This document shows, piece by piece, positions 2,439 to 57,828 of a stretch of 64,000 nt of DNA. Each line of letters begins with the position of its first letter. Within the stretch, counting starts at the first letter, position 1. The notes beneath the pieces are model-generated. The model had not been told where the DNA came from. It did no database searches and saw only the letters and a program-made list of their open reading frames with translations. This DNA comes from Candidatus Woesebacteria bacterium RIFCSPLOWO2_01_FULL_39_23 (GTDB taxonomy: Bacteria > Patescibacteriota > Microgenomatia > UBA8517): NCBI GenBank assembly GCA_001793095.1, contig MGHG01000009.1:221849-285848 (forward strand), written 5' to 3'. The position numbers and the translations under genes are program-made.

Positions 2439-3560
2439 TTAAACTTTTATATTTATTAAGTCTACAAATTCTTTCTTAAAACGTCGTGTTGAAAATTTTT
2501 CAGCATTTTTAATTAATTTATCTCTATCAAATATCATTAAATTGAACGTGTTTACTGCATTACATAACGAATTCTTAGACTGCGTATCAAATAAAACTCC
2601 TGTTTCACTATTAATTACAGTGTCTGACGCGCCACCCTTCGCGTAAGCAATTACCGGACAACCTGCCGCTTGTGCTTCCACAGCCACTATCCCAAAGTCT
2701 TCTTCCTGGGGCATTATTAACGCCCTTGCCCCCCAATAAAGGGAAACTAACTCTTCATCGTCAACAAATCCCTTAAATATAATGTTCTTAAACTTATACT
2801 TAAACTTATACTTTTTCTCCTCACTACCCGTTCCGACAACTACAAGTGGCAAACCAAGCTCATTAAAAGCTTCAATTGCCAAATCCACTTTTTTGTACGG
2901 AACTAATCTCGAAACAATTAAGAAGTATCGTCTCTGCTTCACTACATCACTACGTAGTGATGTAGTATCAACAGATTTCCTTTGAAATTTCTCAATATCA
3001 ACGGGTGGATATATTATCTCTGAACCTCGGTTGTAATATTTTTTGATGCGATCCTGAACAGCAGTCGATATTGCTATCACCACATCTGGTCTTTGGGCGG
3101 CAATTTTATCCCACGATCTTAAATAAGTAACTACTGGTTTTGTTATCCCTTTCCAGCCAAAGGCTGGTCCGCCTCTGGCGGAAAAATAAGTGTCAAAGTG
3201 GCTCCACAAATATCGTGTGGGAGTTAAACAGTAACAAACGTGTAATGTTCCAGGTTTCGTAATTACTCCTTTTGCCGCTTCACTCGTGACAGATATGACA
3301 AGGTCGGACCTTGTCAAGTTAAGACTCTCAAAAGCTATGGGCATAAATGGGGCCAAATACTCATGTTTATCCCTTAAACATGGAATATTCTGCAAAAATG
3401 AAGGGATCACTTCAGGAAACACCTTAGCCCATGTTGCTTTTTCTGGCGAATAAACTGATGTATAAATCGGAGCGTCGGGAAATAATTCATGAAGGGTGAG
3501 AAGAACACGTTCTGCTCCTCCCCACTTGTTTACTCTGTCATAAACTATTGCTGTCTTCAT
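2439..3560 (-). CDS. Glycosyltransferase family 4 (GT-B, retaining)
   Basis: C-terminal E(D)FGIVAVEAQAAGCPVIA motif typical of Glycos_transf_1. It contains a perfect 26-bp palindrome and a 12-bp tandem duplication in-frame. Confidence 0.8.
   Translation of the reverse strand: MKTAIVYDRVNKWGGAERVLLTLHELFPDAPIYTSVYSPEKATWAKVFPEVIPSFLQNIPCLRDKHEYLAPFMPIAFESLNLTRSDLVISVTSEAAKGVITKPGTLHVCYCLTPTRYLWSHFDTYFSARGGPAFGWKGITKPVVTYLRSWDKIAAQRPDVVIAISTAVQDRIKKYYNRGSEIIYPPVDIEKFQRKSVDTTSLRSDVVKQRRYFLIVSRLVPYKKVDLAIEAFNELGLPLVVVGTGSEEKKYKFKYKFKNIIFKGFVDDEELVSLYWGARALIMPQEEDFGIVAVEAQAAGCPVIAYAKGGASDTVINSETGVLFDTQSKNSLCNAVNTFNLMIFDRDKLIKNAEKFSTRRFKKEFVDLINIKV
2787..2810. repeat. 12-bp in-frame tandem duplication (CTTAAACTTATA x2)
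   Basis: Seen directly in the sequence. It encodes KYKFKYKF in the GT4 protein and is followed by a partial third unit (CTT). Confidence 0.5.
2941..2966. repeat. Perfect 26-bp palindrome inside the GT4 coding sequence
   Basis: ACTACATCACTACGTAGTGATGTAGT is its own reverse complement. It encodes TTSLRSDVV on the minus strand and is related to the intergenic palindrome at 5362-5395. Confidence 0.6.
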
Positions 3561-5361: not shown

Positions 5362-5395
5362 TTTTACTACAGCACTACGTAGTAGTGTAGTAAAA
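5362..5395. repeat. Imperfect 34-nt palindrome in the 64-nt intergenic gap between a GT2 and a GT4 gene
   Basis: TTTTACTACAGCACTACGTAGTAGTGTAGTAAAA. Its core ACTACAGCACTACGTAGTAGTGTAGT matches the 2941-2966 palindrome at 23 of 26 positions. Confidence 0.55.
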
Positions 5396-20779: not shown

Positions 20780-22162
20780 TTATTTTGGCACGTATAGAGA
20801 GTAAATGCCCACTTTATCGACCTTTACATAATTTTCAGAAATATAGTTAGAAACTTTCAAAGGCTTATACGACCCCAATCCGCTTATGGCATAGTCACCC
20901 TCTACGATCAACTTCGGCCTATGCTCTTTAAAATCTTCAATCATGTTATCCTGAACCCCCGGGAGATCCATATACCATGGAAGGTAGGGAATGAGTGGTT
21001 TAGTTGCAGGAAGGGTGTCGGATAATGCGTATAAATTATCCCAGGCATTTGCGATATAAATGTCCGAACCGGGATATACTGAGTTATTAATAAAATCAGC
21101 AACTTCCACAATAGCCGGTTCGACAAACCGAGTGGGTTTGCTAAAATTTCGGTAAACAAATCTTCCAGCTAGTATCGAAATTGCTAATATATAAACATAT
21201 AACATAGCGTAATATTTATATGATTTAGTAGTTATTGTGTTTACAGTTACACTTCCTGCCAGTATTGCAAGAAAAGGTATGGCCGGCTGTAAATGAAAAT
21301 ATTCAAATCTCGGAAACGCTCCCAATATACCAGCTAATACCCATGCAAATAAGTTAAATTTATCTCTGTTTGCCTGAATTAAAAACGGAATTACGATTAT
21401 AAACGGAAAGAGAGTCACAACAATCTGGCGAAATGTCGGATAGGAAATCTGACCTGCTGCATTCGGCAGGTAAAATATTCCAAACTTAATCGTCCAATTA
21501 TAAATATCCGGCAATATATGTAGTAAATATATTAGAGATACAATAATTCCAGATATGCAGGTTGCACCGATAGCAAATTTCCTCATACCTTGCAAGGTCT
21601 CACCTTTAAAGGTTGATTCCTGCAAGGTAGATATTGTAATTGGTATCAGAAACCAAAAAGCTGTTTGCTTAGTTAAAAAAGCCAGTGTCCATATAAAACC
21701 TGCCCCCAAATAATGTTTTTTATTAAGCAAATAAAAAATCACAAGCGCTAAAGGCGCTAAGGCAAGATCAAACCATAAACCATTGCCCTCGTAAAGAATT
21801 TGAAGCGGAATATAGAACGTAAGTGCAAAAAGGGCTATTTTATTATTCCAAAGTTTTCTTGTTAGGTAATATAAAAGACAATCGGTGGCGAGTATCAAAA
21901 ACCAAGTATAAATTTTAAGTTGAATGACACCTACTCCAAATACTTTATAAAAAAGAGTCAAATCAACTATAAGTAAAGGTGTATGTGCAACTGCAATATC
22001 CCGATATGGCAACCAACCTTTAAGTATTAAGTACGGCCAGGCTAACATCTCCGGCCAGGCCGTAAATTTAACGCTCATGAGAAGAATCAGGTGAATAAAA
22101 ATCAGAATACAGAGAATGACGAATTTGTGTGTCAGCTCTTTTTTAATAACCCGTTCCACCAT
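20780..22162 (-). CDS. Polytopic membrane protein, putative GT-C glycosyltransferase. It carries an in-frame copy of the 24-nt transposon-associated hairpin repeat
   Basis: 460 aa with many TM helices and a C-terminal soluble domain. Nucleotides 21590-21613 match the IS-flanking 24-mer at 23 of 24 positions and encode STFKGETLQG in a loop. Confidence 0.4.
   Translation of the reverse strand: MVERVIKKELTHKFVILCILIFIHLILLMSVKFTAWPEMLAWPYLILKGWLPYRDIAVAHTPLLIVDLTLFYKVFGVGVIQLKIYTWFLILATDCLLYYLTRKLWNNKIALFALTFYIPLQILYEGNGLWFDLALAPLALVIFYLLNKKHYLGAGFIWTLAFLTKQTAFWFLIPITISTLQESTFKGETLQGMRKFAIGATCISGIIVSLIYLLHILPDIYNWTIKFGIFYLPNAAGQISYPTFRQIVVTLFPFIIVIPFLIQANRDKFNLFAWVLAGILGAFPRFEYFHLQPAIPFLAILAGSVTVNTITTKSYKYYAMLYVYILAISILAGRFVYRNFSKPTRFVEPAIVEVADFINNSVYPGSDIYIANAWDNLYALSDTLPATKPLIPYLPWYMDLPGVQDNMIEDFKEHRPKLIVEGDYAISGLGSYKPLKVSNYISENYVKVDKVGIYSLYVPK
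21590..21613. repeat. Solo copy of the IS-flanking 24-nt hairpin, embedded in-frame in a membrane-protein CDS
   Basis: TTGCAAGGTCTCACCTTTAAAGGT matches the copies at 44945 and 45665 at 23 of 24 positions and is flanked by CCTTGCAAGG / CCTGCAAGG. Confidence 0.55.
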
Positions 22163-36610: not shown

Positions 36611-37552
<942 letters not shown>

Positions 37553-44883: not shown

Positions 44884-44978
44884 AAATTATTTCTCGAAAA
44901 AACCCATACTTCCAGGATACCACCATCCTTCCCCCTTTTGAACCTTGTAAGGTCTCACCTTTAAAGGTAGCATAGAGT

Positions 44979-45659
44979 ATGCCTGCTAAAAATGTGGTAA
45001 AAACCTATATCAATAATGGCATCTATCATATTTACAACCGTGGTGTAGAAAAAAGAAAAATATTCCAAGATAAACAGGATTATAATATTTTTCTGAACTA
45101 TATTAAGGAATATTTAAGTCCGCCGCCTGATATAAGTCAGTTAAAAACTCAATTCATTTTGCAAGGTGAGACCTTTAAAGGTCTACGAAGGTTACCACGT
45201 AATTATTATAAAAAAATTACTCTGATAGCTTACTGTTTACTTCCAAACCACTTTCATCTATTAATAAACCAAAACTCCACAGATGACATGCAAGAATTTA
45301 TTAGATCACTTTGTACTAGATACTCAATATATTTCAATAAAAAATACGACAGAGTGGGCGGACTGTTTCAGGGTCCATATAAAGCTGTTATTGTTACTGA
45401 GGATAATTATTTGCTCCATCTAAGTCGATACATACACCTTAATCCAAAGGATTACACAAAAGATATTATTAACACTTATTCTTCTTATGCCGAATATATG
45501 GGCCTAAGGAGGACGGAATGGGTAAAACCAGATATTGTGCTGGGTTTTTTCAACAACCCAGCTACACAAGAACTTATCAAAACTAATAATTATCGAGATT
45601 TTGTGGAAAAATACATTAAAGATTCTGAAGCGATTCTAGGTAATATGACACTTGAATGA
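44979..45659 (+). CDS. tnpA: Y1 (HUH) transposase, IS200/IS605 TnpA / RAYT-like
   Basis: YHIYNRGVEKRKIF...YCLLPNHFHLLIN (HuH motif) ...GGLFQGPYKAVIV...LHLSRYIHLNP (catalytic Tyr region). It is the only plus-strand gene in a minus-strand block. Confidence 0.75.
   Translation: MPAKNVVKTYINNGIYHIYNRGVEKRKIFQDKQDYNIFLNYIKEYLSPPPDISQLKTQFILQGETFKGLRRLPRNYYKKITLIAYCLLPNHFHLLINQNSTDDMQEFIRSLCTRYSIYFNKKYDRVGGLFQGPYKAVIVTEDNYLLHLSRYIHLNPKDYTKDIINTYSSYAEYMGLRRTEWVKPDIVLGFFNNPATQELIKTNNYRDFVEKYIKDSEAILGNMTLE
45159..45182. repeat. Loop-flipped internal copy of the IS-flanking hairpin inside tnpA
   Basis: TTGCAAGGTGAGACCTTTAAAGGT is identical to the flanking 24-mer except that the central CTC is GAG and there is a T>C change at position 4. 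It encodes LQGETFKG. Confidence 0.5.
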
Positions 45660-45739
45660 TCTTATTGTAAGGTCTCACCTTTAAAGGTTAACTACTGCTT
45701 TATCTTTTAAACTCATTTTTTGAAACGACAACGCTAATT

Positions 45740-56068: not shown

Positions 56069-57828
56069 GACGTCCTCCCCCGAGTCAGACTCGGGGGTTT
56101 CCCTAAGGAGGATGACTTGTCAGAGTTCAATTCACCCCCGGCCTGAAGGGCAGGGTTTTCTTGAACATTGTTATAAAGAATGTTATTTATAATTATTAAA
56201 AACATCGAGACTAAACTTACTATTGAAACCATATCGCCGGCAGTTCTCGGAAAAGAATTATTAAGACTTGCGTAAACAACATAATGCCCCTTGGTTAAGT
56301 CAAATTTTGGGAGTCCCAGGGTCCCGGAATTTGTATAAGGTATATCCGTATCGTTTGCGCTAATCTTCCAAACCGGGAAAGAATACGCAGGTAAAGCCAG
56401 TTCCGCCATACCGCTTTCTACAATTAAATCATATTTAAACCAATTACTACCTTTTATCGATGATTTTAAGTTAATTTCTCCGGTTAAGGGGATTAATCCT
56501 TCGGGTGCTACGTCATCGGGTGCACGCGACGCACTTTTTGGGAGGTAATCATAAATACTTGCAGTTAACTGTCTTTTCAAATTTTCGCCGCTAAGTTTTT
56601 CAGAATCATTTATAAAAAACCAATCTTTCGGTTTAAACATCCGCGAATAAAAAATAAGTATAATAAATATCGTAGCTAACGAGGAAAAGATTAAGAACTT
56701 GCCCTTAGACTGATTAAGAGCAAAACCGGCGAAAAAGGAAGATATAAAAATCGGCATCATAAGGAATCTCCAAGGAAACTGAAGAAATTCAAGAAAAGAT
56801 AAATTTTGCCAGATAAATATTGATTTGCTGTGAGACATAAACGCATAACCTAAAAAGCCCATCATACCGAATAAAAATAACGCCAAATTTAGTTTACGTT
56901 TGTTCACTTTAACAATTAATACCATTAAACCAGTAATAACTGCCAAGGTATGAATTGGGCCAATACCTAAAAAGGCATCGTCCCCTGCTCCGATAACCGA
57001 AGGGCCATAACCCCAATGAGTAAATACGAATAATTGACTAACGCTAAGAAAGTGTTGAAGGTAACCGAAATAACCAGCCGTCAAAGTCTCTACATGCACC
57101 AAATTTCTTTCATAAATAAGTGGTATTAAGAAAAAAGATGATAATCCTACACCTAATAATGAATACTGAAAAAGATCAATAAGTGCCTGCGATCTAACTT
57201 TGTAAAACTTTAATCGAAGCACAACCCAAATTAAAAAGATCGGAAGTACGATTAATACGGTCAGGTTGTGTGTTATGAAAAATATCGAGAGCGATAAAGA
57301 AAGTATTATTCCGGAAATTTTGCTTTTTTTCGCCAAATAATTTTCAAGTGCCCAAAAGATGAGTGGAACTACAACCAGCCCCCAACTCTCACCCATCGCA
57401 CCGCGAACATAAATTCCAGCAGCTCTCATCGGTGCGTAAATATATAAAGCAGTCGTTGCAAAAGATACATATTGTTTAAAAAATCTTCTTGAAAATAAAT
57501 AAAAAAACAGGGCAGAAAAAATAACGCTCAAGATAAAACCCGCTTTTACTGAATTAATTAACGATATCCCCAACAAATGAATTCCCTCCATGATGTAGTA
57601 CGGAAGCGGAGCATAATATATATAAAGCGGATAGCCATAACCTAACCCTAAATCCGGCACCCACCGGCAAGGAATTTGGCCATCCCTGAGGCATTTATCC
57701 ATCTCCCAAACACGTACAACCTGCATATCATCATACATTGAATAAAACCCACCTTTAAATAACGGAAATATTGCTGGAAGACACAGCAATAATAAAGTAA
57801 ATGCTGTGATGATGTTTTTCTTGAGCAT
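56065..57828 (-). CDS. Polytopic membrane protein, putative GT-C glycosyltransferase (paralog of 54401-56068)
   Basis: YSMYDDMQVVRVWEMDKCLRDGQIPCRWVPDLGLGYGYPLYIYYAPLPYY ... FLQFPWRFLM. The start is placed at the internal MLKKNIITAF. It has a C-terminal periplasmic-type domain and a low-complexity tail. Confidence 0.45.
   Translation of the reverse strand: MLKKNIITAFTLLLLCLPAIFPLFKGGFYSMYDDMQVVRVWEMDKCLRDGQIPCRWVPDLGLGYGYPLYIYYAPLPYYIMEGIHLLGISLINSVKAGFILSVIFSALFFYLFSRRFFKQYVSFATTALYIYAPMRAAGIYVRGAMGESWGLVVVPLIFWALENYLAKKSKISGIILSLSLSIFFITHNLTVLIVLPIFLIWVVLRLKFYKVRSQALIDLFQYSLLGVGLSSFFLIPLIYERNLVHVETLTAGYFGYLQHFLSVSQLFVFTHWGYGPSVIGAGDDAFLGIGPIHTLAVITGLMVLIVKVNKRKLNLALFLFGMMGFLGYAFMSHSKSIFIWQNLSFLEFLQFPWRFLMMPIFISSFFAGFALNQSKGKFLIFSSLATIFIILIFYSRMFKPKDWFFINDSEKLSGENLKRQLTASIYDYLPKSASRAPDDVAPEGLIPLTGEINLKSSIKGSNWFKYDLIVESGMAELALPAYSFPVWKISANDTDIPYTNSGTLGLPKFDLTKGHYVVYASLNNSFPRTAGDMVSIVSLVSMFLIIINNILYNNVQENPALQAGGELNSDKSSSLGKPPSLTRGRTS

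What the first reader, a model, noticed from the sequence alone, without database searches (positions are those of the whole stretch)
21590..21613. Transposon-end hairpin embedded in-frame in a membrane-protein gene 23 kb away, and a loop-flipped copy inside tnpA itself
A 23-of-24 match to the IS-flanking repeat sits inside CDS 20780-22162 without breaking the frame, encoding STFKGETLQG in a predicted loop. A second internal copy at 45159-45182, inside tnpA, has the 3-nt loop inverted (CTC to GAG, as expected from the hairpin flipping) and encodes LQGETFKG. So the same hairpin yields the peptide GET(F/L)(K/Q)G in two unrelated proteins. This could reflect a REP/PATE-like miniature element inserting in-frame into coding sequence. 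It could alternatively be a recombination hotspot capable of transposase-mediated rearrangement within this glycosylation locus.
Basis: seen in the sequence. Interest (0 to 1): 0.6.

Follow-up and report, generated by a model that had tools for sequence, protein, structure and literature searches.

The report
Transposase-linked hairpin repeat embedded inside genes
A 27-base DNA hairpin that brackets a single-copy tyrosine transposase gene in this candidate-phyla-radiation (CPR) bacterium also sits in frame inside that gene and inside a sugar-transferase gene, and across about 80 related loci the copy inside the transposase gene changes in step with the flanking copies.

Summary
Four copies of TTGYAAGGT(CTC/GAG)ACCTTTAAAGGT lie at 21590, 44945, 45159 and 45665, where chance predicts none. 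The gene they surround is a single-copy Y1/HUH transposase resembling REP-associated tyrosine transposases (RAYTs), from a Woesebacteria (CPR) genome.

The "same peptide in two proteins" follows from symmetry. Both 12-base halves are perfect palindromes, so either strand read in that phase gives TLQG or TFKG.

The copy inside tnpA is not an insertion. F-T-L-Q-G-x-(T/S/P/A)-F-K-G is conserved across the clade. In 51 of 84 related loci the flanking hairpins have a 16-18/18 match inside their own coding sequence, against 2% for mismatched locus pairs. A synonymous Gly base covaries with the first base of the next-but-one codon.

The membrane-gene copy lies in a loop of variable length, where orthologues at 44-51% identity carry their own hairpin versions. 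It is therefore an old or recurrently used site, not a one-off insertion.

I found no evidence of rearrangement.

Verdict: a REP/RAYT-like system with few copies, many of them inside genes. In-frame genic REPs are known. A cognate hairpin built into the transposase's own coding sequence was not described in the papers I could search.

The parts
21587..21613 (+). Genic copy of the 27-nt hairpin (ACCTTGCAAGGT-CTC-ACCTTTAAAGGT). It lies inside the GT39/PMT_2-like gene and is read on the - strand as T184-F-K-G-E-T-L-Q-G192.
   Evidence: As ssDNA either strand folds into a two-tier hairpin (5 bp, 2x2 internal loop, 5 bp, 3-nt loop), dG -5.8 and -6.1 kcal/mol, z -2.4 and -3.0.
21614..21628 (+). Adjacent third half-unit (reverse complement ACCTTGCAGGAATCA, encoding T179-LQES). 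The genic element is therefore about 42 nt with three palindromic 12-mers.
   Evidence: Seven of the 10 bases that follow the core match the 3' flank of the downstream tnpA copy. This is a weak signal.
20780..22162 (-). Host gene: a 460-aa polytopic glycosyltransferase (GT39/ArnT-like). The hairpin lies in the variable loop after the conserved KQTAFWFLIP motif.
   Evidence: Pfam PMT_2 at 22.7 bits, below the 26.1 cutoff. Homologues are named GT39 / ArnT-like by their sources. Alignment A1.
44942..44968 (+). Upstream (left) hairpin copy, ending 10 nt before the tnpA ATG. It has the full lower and upper stems and a CTC loop.
   Evidence: ssDNA fold -6.3 kcal/mol, z -2.95.
44979..45659 (+). tnpA: a 226-aa Y1 (HUH) tyrosine transposase, RAYT-like. 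HUH is at H91-F-H93 and the catalytic Tyr lies in S149-RYIHLNP156.
   Evidence: Pfam Y1_Tnp at 39.2 bits against a 23 cutoff. NCBIfam REP_Tyr_transpos at 40 bits, below its 80 cutoff. The AF2 model matches IS608, ISDra2 and IS200 TnpA and E. coli TnpA-REP 4er8, each with probability 1.0. One locus, same neighbours, in 24 contigs.
45159..45182 (+). Hairpin copy inside tnpA (loop GAG), encoding L61-QGETFK-G68. In this genome the lower stem is lost because codon 60 is ATT rather than the clade's usual ACC.
   Evidence: The AF2 model places residues 56-61 and 64-69 in a beta-hairpin with its turn at G63-E64 (model numbering 62-63), block pLDDT about 69-75.
45665..45688 (+). Downstream (right) hairpin copy, starting 6 nt after the tnpA stop. 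Only the upper 5-bp stem is present.
   Evidence: Fold -2.4 kcal/mol, z -0.7, which is not significant on its own.

Best explanation
What it is:
- The 21590 motif is one member of a small, genome-specific family of REP-like DNA hairpins.
- The family belongs to the single-copy RAYT-like Y1/HUH transposase at 44979-45659.
- That gene is bracketed by two copies and carries a third inside its own reading frame.

Why it can sit in coding DNA:
- The element is built from two self-complementary 12-mers around a 3-nt loop.
- Two of its three phases on each strand are open. In the commonest phase it reads T-L-Q-G-x-T-F-K-G.
- That sequence is tolerated as a surface loop or beta-hairpin.

What the two genic copies are:
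- The copy in the glycosyltransferase occupies a loop that has housed such hairpins since before these species diverged.
- The copy in tnpA is an inherited, clade-wide feature.

What is shown: within each genome the genic, internal and flanking copies stay nearly identical, while they differ between genomes.

What is inferred:
- The transposase recognises the folded hairpin in single-stranded DNA, cuts beside its foot and rejoins.
- Resident hairpins are thereby repeatedly overwritten in place, in either orientation, by the current master version.
- This would be length-preserving cassette replacement, that is, concerted evolution.
For: Family-wide layout and covariation:
- One search shows the same three-site layout in homologue loci L003, L006 and L008, each with a different hairpin sequence that matches within the locus.
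- Searches compare each locus's flanks with its own coding sequence. A match of at least 16/18 occurs in 51 of 84 loci (31 are 18/18). Non-cognate pairings give 4 of 252.
- The internal sites cluster at codons ~49-64 or ~147-169.

Nucleic-acid constraint inside the coding sequence:
- In one search the third base of the Gly63 codon pairs with the first base of codon 65 as T-A (4), G-C (3) and A-T (3), with 2 mismatches, among 12 distinct DNAs.
- In one search residue 65 is T, S, P or A (NCC codons) in 114 of 120 homologues, while the loop codon 64 is hypervariable.

Dispersed copies are cognate:
- Searches find 6 dispersed copies in 397 kb using each locus's own hairpin. Other loci's hairpins predict 0.14.
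- In one search's listing of these extra copies, 4 of 7 lie in long ORFs.
- Searches show a genic copy (L013) matching its own genome's RAYT hairpin (L012).

The glycosyltransferase loop is an old site:
- Searches show orthologous loops carrying related hairpins in both open phases (LQGISLQK, FKGLPFKG; PLKVRPLKG, RRPCKDQPFKV).

The gene behaves as domesticated and is a Y1 transposase:
- Searches show one syntenic locus.
- Searches show a Y1 transposase fold.

Known biochemistry: TnpA-REP binds, cleaves and rejoins single-stranded REP hairpins (PMC3333891, PMC8266576).
Against: - No cleavage, excision or copy-number data exist for this system.
- The complete genome could not be scanned, because it is absent from the genome collection. 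Only 4 copies are seen in 64 kb, far fewer than in classical REP systems.
- The canonical GTAG guide tetranucleotide is not conserved. The recurring core is CAAGG-N-loop-N'-CCTTG.
- The protein scores below NCBIfam's RAYT cutoff.
- In this window the internal copy has lost its lower stem and has the opposite loop. The downstream copy barely folds. So homogenisation is imperfect here.
- No strain-level polymorphism was found that would show ongoing turnover.
- Selection on each site could also produce covariation without transposase-mediated replacement.
Confidence: 0.7

Rival explanations
1. The internal hairpin, and perhaps the genic ones, are selected cis-regulatory sites. On this view the transposase binds the hairpin in its own coding DNA or mRNA, or the 5' hairpin sequesters the ribosome-binding site, to hold expression down. 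All sites then track the protein's specificity through selection rather than replacement. This overlaps with the best explanation rather than excluding it.
For: - The position and length of the internal site are fixed across a clade at 50-68% identity.
- Base pairs are kept through compensatory changes that cost amino-acid changes.
- The upstream hairpin's 3' arm (TAAAGGT, or TAAAGGAG in L053 and L079) sits where a Shine-Dalgarno sequence would be.
- IS200 uses such a hairpin, as cited in PMC3733652.
Against: - The internal site sits at different places in different subfamilies: codons ~50-64, ~150-169 or the C-terminus. About 39% of loci show none.
- Loop orientation relative to the flanks is not conserved.
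- In this window the internal copy has lost its lower stem.
- All stems are Watson-Crick with no G-T enrichment seen, which gives no support for an RNA-only role.
Confidence: 0.25
2. A recent, one-off in-frame insertion of a miniature element into the glycosyltransferase gene of this genome.
For: - The genic copy is 26/27 identical to the upstream tnpA copy, which looks young.
- The shortest orthologues lack a full element, with loop lengths of 47-53 against 58 here.
Against: - Orthologues at 44-51% identity have related hairpins at the same loop.
- More than a third of 115 orthologues show hairpin-type peptides there.
- The closest homologues, P0002 and P0019, have the same loop length to within one residue.
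- No strain lacking the element was found.
Confidence: 0.12
3. The tnpA unit with its two hairpins is an active IS200/IS605-type insertion sequence, and the other copies are solo ends or its targets.
For: - It has a Y1 fold.
- Its size of about 750 bp is close to IS200.
- The left and right hairpins are in direct orientation on one strand, as in IS608.
Against: - It occupies one locus with the same neighbours in 24 contigs from different samples.
- Homologues at 64-66% identity sit next to the same SDR gene in other species.
- The left and right loops are inverted relative to each other in roughly a third of related loci.
Confidence: 0.08
4. The repeats form a recombination hotspot through which the transposase rearranges the glycosylation locus.
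For: There are two same-strand copies 23 kb apart and a transposase between glycosyltransferase genes.
Against: - The order GT39 gene followed by the 339-aa GT4 gene is conserved in L017, L019 and L020.
- All contigs read show a single arrangement.
- Cluster members are 100% identical.
Confidence: 0.04
5. Chance similarity, or convergent selection for a GET(F/L)(K/Q)G peptide.
For: None beyond the shared peptide.
Against: - Shuffles predict zero matches.
- The two proteins read opposite strands of a palindrome.
- Identity includes synonymous positions.
- Covariation is locus-specific.
Confidence: 0.01

Closest known systems
REP / RAYT (TnpA-REP) systems, or 'REPtrons' (Nunvar 2010 PMC2817692; Ton-Hoang 2012 PMC3333891; Bertels 2017 PMC5581495; Corneloup 2021 PMC8266576)
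   Same: - A single-copy, vertically inherited Y1/HUH transposase tightly bracketed by short hairpin repeats.
- Further cognate copies of the hairpin lie elsewhere in the genome.
- Hairpins are genome-specific.
- The hairpin is two-tier with an internal mismatch, like the E. coli REP.
   Different: - Copy density is very low, about 1 per 60 kb outside the gene.
- About half of the dispersed copies are inside genes.
- There is no conserved GTAG. The core is CAAGG...CCTTG.
- The protein scores below the NCBIfam RAYT cutoff and carries a ~30-aa insert.
- A cognate hairpin lies inside the transposase coding sequence. I did not find this described.
Intragenic in-frame REPs and Rickettsia palindromic elements (RPE) (Di Nocera 2013, PMC3733652, and works cited there)
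   Same: - Palindromic repeats inserted in frame in functional genes, adding short peptides.
- Different REPs occupy the same site of recB in two Xanthomonas species, which parallels the GT39 loop.
- The topA copy in L016 fits that paper's note that replication and repair genes are hit.
   Different: - Here the unit is a single 27-nt hairpin, not a 100-150-bp RPE.
- The hosts are CPR bacteria.
- The transposase gene itself is a host, at a conserved codon position.
IS200/IS605 insertion sequences (IS608, ISDra2, IS200)
   Same: - Y1 fold, with best Foldseek hits 2vic, 2a6o and 2xm3.
- Subterminal hairpins recognised as single-stranded DNA.
- In this window the left and right hairpins are direct repeats on one strand.
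- A hairpin lies next to the start codon, as in IS200.
   Different: - Not multicopy and not mobile as a unit.
- The ends are identical hairpins, and no distinct cleavage sites were identified.
- The protein is 226 aa, against about 130-155 aa.
REPINs (REP doublets; Bertels and Rainey 2011, PMC3116915)
   Same: The related Gottesmanbacteria contig L015 has two intergenic doublets. In each, the two hairpins are 42 nt apart and have reverse-complemented loops.
   Different: In the window the copies are singletons, or a 1.5-unit cluster in the GT39 gene. No doublet population was seen.
PATE
   Same: A transposase-less element bearing the end structures. The genic copy has a 5' flank like the left end (ACC) and a 3' flank weakly like the right end (7/10).
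   Different: PATEs are hundreds of bases long with two different ends. This unit is a single 27-42-nt hairpin.

Membership tests
Y1 / HUH transposase superfamily (Pfam PF01797) | Pfam Y1_Tnp score above the gathering threshold | tested here: met
   39.2 bits against a 23 cutoff.
Y1 / HUH transposase superfamily (Pfam PF01797) | HUH motif and catalytic tyrosine present and conserved | tested here: met
   H91, H93, Y151, H153, N155 and P156 are invariant in A2.
Y1 / HUH transposase superfamily (Pfam PF01797) | Y1 transposase fold | tested here: met
   Foldseek probability 1.0 to IS608, ISDra2 and IS200 TnpA and to 4er8. The model is only moderate, with mean pLDDT 66.
RAYT / TnpA-REP (REPtron) | One copy per genome, vertically inherited | tested here: met
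   All 24 contigs read show the same locus. Homologues at 64-66% identity share the neighbouring SDR gene. A closed genome was not available.
RAYT / TnpA-REP (REPtron) | Gene flanked by the repeats that also occur elsewhere in the genome | tested here: met
   Flanking copies are at 44942 and 45665 and a dispersed copy at 21587. Family-wide, cognate dispersed copies number 6 against 0.14 expected.
RAYT / TnpA-REP (REPtron) | Repeat population of tens to hundreds of copies, mostly extragenic | tested here: not met
   One dispersed copy in 64 kb and 6 in 397 kb, about half of them genic. The whole genome could not be scanned.
RAYT / TnpA-REP (REPtron) | Conserved GTAG/GTGG tetranucleotide 5' of the hairpin foot | tested here: not met
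   The window flanks read GTAA and the genic and internal copies GCAA. Across loci the conserved part is the stem core CAAGG/CAGGG.
RAYT / TnpA-REP (REPtron) | Sequence membership (NCBIfam NF047646 equivalog) | tested here: not met
   40 bits against an 80 cutoff. The PDB profile search gave no hit at E <= 0.01.
RAYT / TnpA-REP (REPtron) | Protein binds and cleaves its single-stranded hairpin | not testable with these tools
   Needs biochemistry.
IS200/IS605 insertion sequence | The whole unit is present in several copies or at variable loci | tested here: not met
IS200/IS605 insertion sequence | Left and right subterminal hairpins lie on the same strand | tested here: met
   Both have CTC loops on + in the window. 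Related loci are mixed, some direct and some inverted.
Intragenic REP / RPE-type in-frame palindromic element | The repeat lies wholly within an intact ORF, in frame, in a region homologues show to be dispensable or variable | tested here: met
   Further cases are L013 and L016.
Intragenic REP / RPE-type in-frame palindromic element | A clean insertion relative to close homologues | tested here: inconclusive
   The nearest non-identical homologues are only ~50% identical. Loop lengths span 47-71 and many homologues carry their own hairpin.
REPIN | Two REPs in inverted orientation with a short spacer as the repeated unit | tested here: not met
   No doublet in the window. Doublets exist in L015.

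The most novel reading that the evidence does not exclude
The hairpin inside the transposase gene may be a working part of the system rather than a tolerated passenger. On this reading, CPR RAYT-like genes carry their own recognition hairpin in their coding sequence. It would serve as a self-site for autoregulation, self-limitation by excision, or templating of new copies. The DNA structure would then dictate a beta-hairpin in the protein, so enzyme and substrate would be written in the same 27 bases and would co-evolve as one unit. By extension, hairpins held for long periods in host-gene loops such as the GT39 loop could act as transposase-operated in-frame switches.
Probability: 0.18. Interest if true: 0.85.

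Novelty: new variant of a known kind. Interest (0 to 1): 0.6.

Why it matters
- REP/RAYT systems are the best-known case of a domesticated transposase maintaining a population of tiny repeats. How the repeats spread and stay uniform is still unclear.
- This lineage of very compact CPR genomes has little intergenic space. The repeats here live largely inside genes, including the transposase gene itself.
- That gives three things. First, a natural record of hairpin turnover at fixed, alignable codon positions, with base-pair covariation readable through the genetic code. Second, a clear example of a DNA secondary structure shaping protein sequence. Third, a testable hypothesis of length-preserving replacement of hairpins by a Y1 enzyme.
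- There is also a practical point. Short conserved 'motifs' such as LQGxTFKG in CPR proteins can be repeat-encoded, not functional protein motifs.

Tried and rejected
1. Genome-wide copy count. Copy number therefore rests on 64 kb plus the flanks of related loci.
2. Strain polymorphism at the genic hairpin. All cluster members are 100% identical, which is uninformative.
3. Sequence search of solved structures. There was no hit at E <= 0.01 and only ISDra2 TnpA at E 0.03. Fold search was needed instead.
4. Rfam. No family matched anywhere in the window.
5. Simple-insertion test for the membrane protein. It was inconclusive, because the loop is variable and many orthologues carry their own hairpin.
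6. Pairing a GT39-loop hairpin with the RAYT hairpin of the same genome. This could not be done beyond the window. The hairpin in L017 equals the RAYT variant of L006, but I could not show they share a genome. P0050 and P0129 each list the same longest-contig length (920,722 bp), so they probably lie on one contig, though I did not confirm this by fetching the P0050 locus. The P0050 loop lacks the element.
7. Rejected outright: chance, peptide-level convergence and a rearrangement hotspot.
8. Literature. Five full-text searches and six papers read found intragenic REPs and REPs overlapping the ends of RAYT genes (PMC3733652). None described a hairpin in the middle of a RAYT coding sequence or CPR RAYTs. 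Absence from this library is not proof of novelty.
Full report
OBSERVATION

Allowing up to 3 mismatches, it occurs four times in the window, all on the + strand:
- 21590-21613
- 44945-44968 (1 mismatch)
- 45159-45182 (3 mismatches, all in the loop: CTC to GAG)
- 45665-45688 (1 mismatch)

Dinucleotide-preserving shuffles gave no matches.

The unit is longer than reported. With the three preceding bases, the genic copy ACCTTGCAAGGTCTCACCTTTAAAGGT (21587-21613) matches the copy upstream of tnpA (44942-44968) at 26 of 27 positions. Against the downstream copy the similarity extends to 30/34.

In the 20780-22162 ORF (- strand) it encodes S183-TFKGETLQ-G192. In tnpA (44979-45659) the loop-reversed copy encodes L61-QGETFK-G68.

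WHY TWO PROTEINS SHARE A PEPTIDE

ACCTTGCAAGGT and ACCTTTAAAGGT are each their own reverse complement. Either strand read in that phase therefore gives T-L-Q-G and T-F-K-G around the loop codon. The shared GET(F/L)(K/Q)G is a consequence of symmetry, not of protein-level selection.

Of the three phases on each strand, one contains TAA and two are open.

THE GENE AND THE ORGANISM

- tnpA is a Y1/HUH transposase. Pfam Y1_Tnp scores 39.2 bits against a 23 cutoff. The alignment skips residues ~45-77.
- NCBIfam's REP-associated tyrosine transposase model is the only other hit, but at 40 bits it is below its 80-bit cutoff.
- An AlphaFold model (mean pLDDT 66) matches IS608, ISDra2 and IS200 TnpA and E. 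coli TnpA-REP (4er8) with probability 1.0.
- Identical proteins are annotated in Candidatus Woesebacteria bins from the Rifle aquifer.
- The gene sits at one locus with the same neighbours in all 24 contigs read.
- Homologues at 64-66% identity lie next to the same SDR gene in other species.

So it behaves like a domesticated single-copy RAYT, not a hopping IS.

THE COPY INSIDE tnpA IS A FAMILY FEATURE

In 22 aligned homologues (56-68% identity) the segment F-(T/I)-L-Q-G-x-x-F-K-G is conserved. It is not an insertion in this gene.

Reading the DNA of three homologue loci showed the same three-site layout: just upstream of the ATG, at codons ~59-68, and just after the stop. The hairpin sequence differs between loci but agrees within each locus:
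- window: AAGGT-CTC/GAG-ACCTT
- L006: AGGGGT(A/T)ACCCC
- L008: AAGGTTTCTCCTT

I then fetched 80 more loci (587 of 600 candidate stretches encode a relative). For each I asked for the best ungapped 18-nt match between the 80-nt flanks and that locus's own coding sequence.
- 51 of 84 distinct loci reach at least 16/18, and 31 reach 18/18.
- Flanks paired with the coding sequence of another locus reach this in 4 of 252 cases.
- The internal matches cluster at codons ~49-64, or ~147-169 just after the catalytic YIHLNP, or occasionally at the C-terminus. Some loci have two.

The hairpins are 5-12-bp perfect Watson-Crick stems, mostly with 3-nt loops and a recurring core CAAGG-N-loop-N'-CCTTG. The loop is often reverse-complemented between flank and internal copy.

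THE NUCLEIC-ACID CONSTRAINT CAN BE READ THROUGH THE CODE

In the LQG..FKG clade the third base of the Gly63 codon (a synonymous position) pairs with the first base of codon 65. Among 12 distinct DNAs the pairs are:
- GGT..ACC (Thr), 4 cases
- GGG..CCC (Pro), 3 cases
- GGA..TCC (Ser), 3 cases
- mismatch, 2 cases

Across 120 homologues, residue 65 is T, S, P or A (the four NCC codon families) in 114 cases. The loop codon 64 is hypervariable.

The model puts residues 56-61 and 64-69 in a beta-hairpin with the turn at the loop codon. This hairpin is inserted between helix 32-46 and the strand leading to the HUH motif (moderate confidence). A DNA hairpin is thus translated into a protein beta-hairpin.

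THE COPY IN THE MEMBRANE PROTEIN

The host is a GT39/ArnT-like polytopic glycosyltransferase. The motif lies in a loop after the conserved KQTAFWFLIP.

Measured from the KQTA motif to a conserved downstream Trp motif (W-[A/T]-x-x-F-[G/A]), this segment ranges from 47 to 71 residues in 115 orthologues, with modes at 53, 55 and 60. The window's is 58. So it is longer than the shortest forms but not an outlier.

Orthologues at 44-51% identity have related hairpins in the DNA at the same place:
- L017: CCTTTAAGGGGTTACCCTTTAAAGGTGGCACCTTGCAAG
- L019: CCTTTAAAGGAGGCTCCCTTCAAGGG
- L020: CTTTAAAGGTTCAACCCTTAAAGGGG

More than a third of orthologues show hairpin-type peptides there, in both open phases: LQGISLQK, LKGTTLQG and FKGLPFKG in one, PLKVRPLKG and RRPCKDQPFKV in the other.

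The window's gene also has a third half-unit adjacent to the core (21614-21628). This loop is therefore a long-standing or recurrently used site. Yet the window's copy is 26/27 identical to its own RAYT's upstream hairpin. That combination is the signature of concerted evolution, not of a single fresh insertion or of an ancient relic.

DISPERSED COPIES ARE COGNATE, RARE AND OFTEN GENIC

- In 26 loci with long flanks (397 kb), each locus's own hairpin finds 6 further copies outside tnpA. Hairpins of other loci predict 0.14.
- In one search's listing of such extra copies, 4 of 7 lie in long ORFs.
- The genome-collection scan found only five loci.
- One pair comes from the same MAG. L012 is a RAYT locus with the three-site layout. 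L013 carries the same variant in frame in a 395-aa ORF, reading TPFKGVTLQG.
- L016 has the exact 27-mer of this window in topA, reading GTFKGETLQGK. That contig is 47.6% GC and is labelled Gammaproteobacteria.
- L015 (Gottesmanbacteria) has two intergenic doublets with reversed loops 42 nt apart, which resemble REPINs.

FOLDING

As single-stranded DNA the upstream copy and the genic copy (either strand) form a two-tier hairpin: 5 bp, a 2x2 internal loop, 5 bp and a 3-nt loop. The energies are -5.8 to -6.3 kcal/mol, with z about -2.4 to -3.

The internal copy has lost the lower stem, because codon 60 is ATT instead of the clade's usual ACC. The downstream copy keeps only the upper stem. No Rfam family matches.

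MECHANISM

Shown:
- A Y1 transposase gene and a genome-specific hairpin family are associated across a large CPR clade.
- The hairpin is embedded in the enzyme's own coding sequence at a few permissive positions.
- Copies within a genome stay alike while genomes differ.
- Base pairing is maintained at the cost of amino-acid changes.

Inferred:
- TnpA-REP enzymes bind, cut and rejoin single-stranded REP hairpins (PMC3333891, PMC8266576).
- By analogy, this enzyme would recognise the folded hairpin and replace resident hairpins in place, in either orientation, with the current version.
- This would explain the fixed position and length, the within-genome identity and the frequent loop reversal.

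A non-exclusive alternative is that the internal and 5' hairpins are selected regulatory sites. The 3' arm TAAAGGT/TAAAGGAG lies where a ribosome-binding site would be, as in IS200.

I found nothing to support a rearrangement hotspot. The GT39-GT4 gene order is conserved in three other species, and the proteins are 100% identical across samples.

COMPARISON WITH WHAT IS KNOWN

- In-frame intragenic REPs are described. So are different REPs at the same site of an orthologous gene, and REPs overlapping the ends of RAYT genes (PMC3733652).
- Rickettsia RPEs are the classic in-frame palindromic elements.
- This case meets the Y1 criteria and the REPtron layout. It fails three RAYT criteria: the GTAG tag, high extragenic copy number, and the NCBIfam score.
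- In the six REP/RAYT papers I read and five full-text searches I found no description of a cognate hairpin in the middle of a RAYT coding sequence, nor of RAYT systems in CPR bacteria.

I therefore rate it a new variant of a known kind.

VERDICT

The ordinary part, an in-frame REP in a gene, is known biology. The family-wide hairpin encoded within the transposase, covarying with its flanks, is the interesting part. Interest 0.6.

Noticed in passing
window 2941-2966 and 5366-5391: A different 26-nt perfect palindrome, ACTACATCACTacgtAGTGATGTAGT, lies in frame in the GT4-like gene 2439-3560 (-). It encodes DTTSLRSDVV in the hypervariable inter-domain linker. A 23/26 copy is intergenic at 5366-5391. 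Homologue P0250 (64% identity) reads DTTSLYSDVV at the same place.
   Followed up: partly
window 3296-3316: TGACAAGGTcggACCTTGTCA (9-bp stem, 3-nt loop) lies in the same GT4 gene and encodes LTRSDLVI. It is the same hairpin type that flanks the RAYT of locus L075. There is no length change against 119 homologues (xFSGYDLVISV becomes NLTRSDLVISV). The right arm is the conserved DLVI codons and the left arm has replaced F-x-x-Y. This looks like in-place creation or replacement, not insertion. No matching second RAYT is present in the window.
   Followed up: partly
L022-L101 (TnpA homologue loci), codons ~147-169: A second hotspot for the embedded hairpin lies directly after the catalytic YIHLNP motif and is used by subfamilies that lack the codon-60 site. 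L054 and L101 carry hairpins at both sites.
   Followed up: partly
L015 348-392 and 7926-7968: A Gottesmanbacteria contig has two intergenic hairpin doublets 42 nt apart with reverse-complemented loops (GAG/CTC and TCA/TGA), so two loop variants coexist in one genome. They resemble REPINs.
   Followed up: partly
L016 7926-7952: The exact 27-mer of this window's upstream hairpin lies in frame in a topoisomerase I gene (…EEYCTIEGTFKGETLQGKVEP…). The contig is 47.6% GC and labelled 'uncultured Gammaproteobacteria'. Either the bin is wrong or the same hairpin variant exists in a quite different genome.
   Followed up: partly
L013 1095-2282: In Patescibacteria MAG UBA10108 a 395-aa ORF carries that genome's own RAYT hairpin in frame (TPFKGVTLQG). 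Its loop is reverse-complemented relative to the upstream hairpin of the RAYT locus L012.
   Followed up: partly
window 56077-56097 and 36707-36726: Two G+C-rich perfect hairpins stand out in this 36% GC window: CCCCCGAGTcagACTCGGGGG and GGCTCGACttgtGTCGAGCC. The overall count of stems of at least 7 bp is at shuffle level (21 against 19.6), so they may mean nothing.
   Followed up: no
window 1-64000: GC skew of the + strand is negative across the whole window and nearly all genes are on the - strand. The three CTC-loop hairpin copies all lie on the C-rich + strand. This could matter for an enzyme that acts on one replication strand, but there are too few copies to test it.
   Followed up: no
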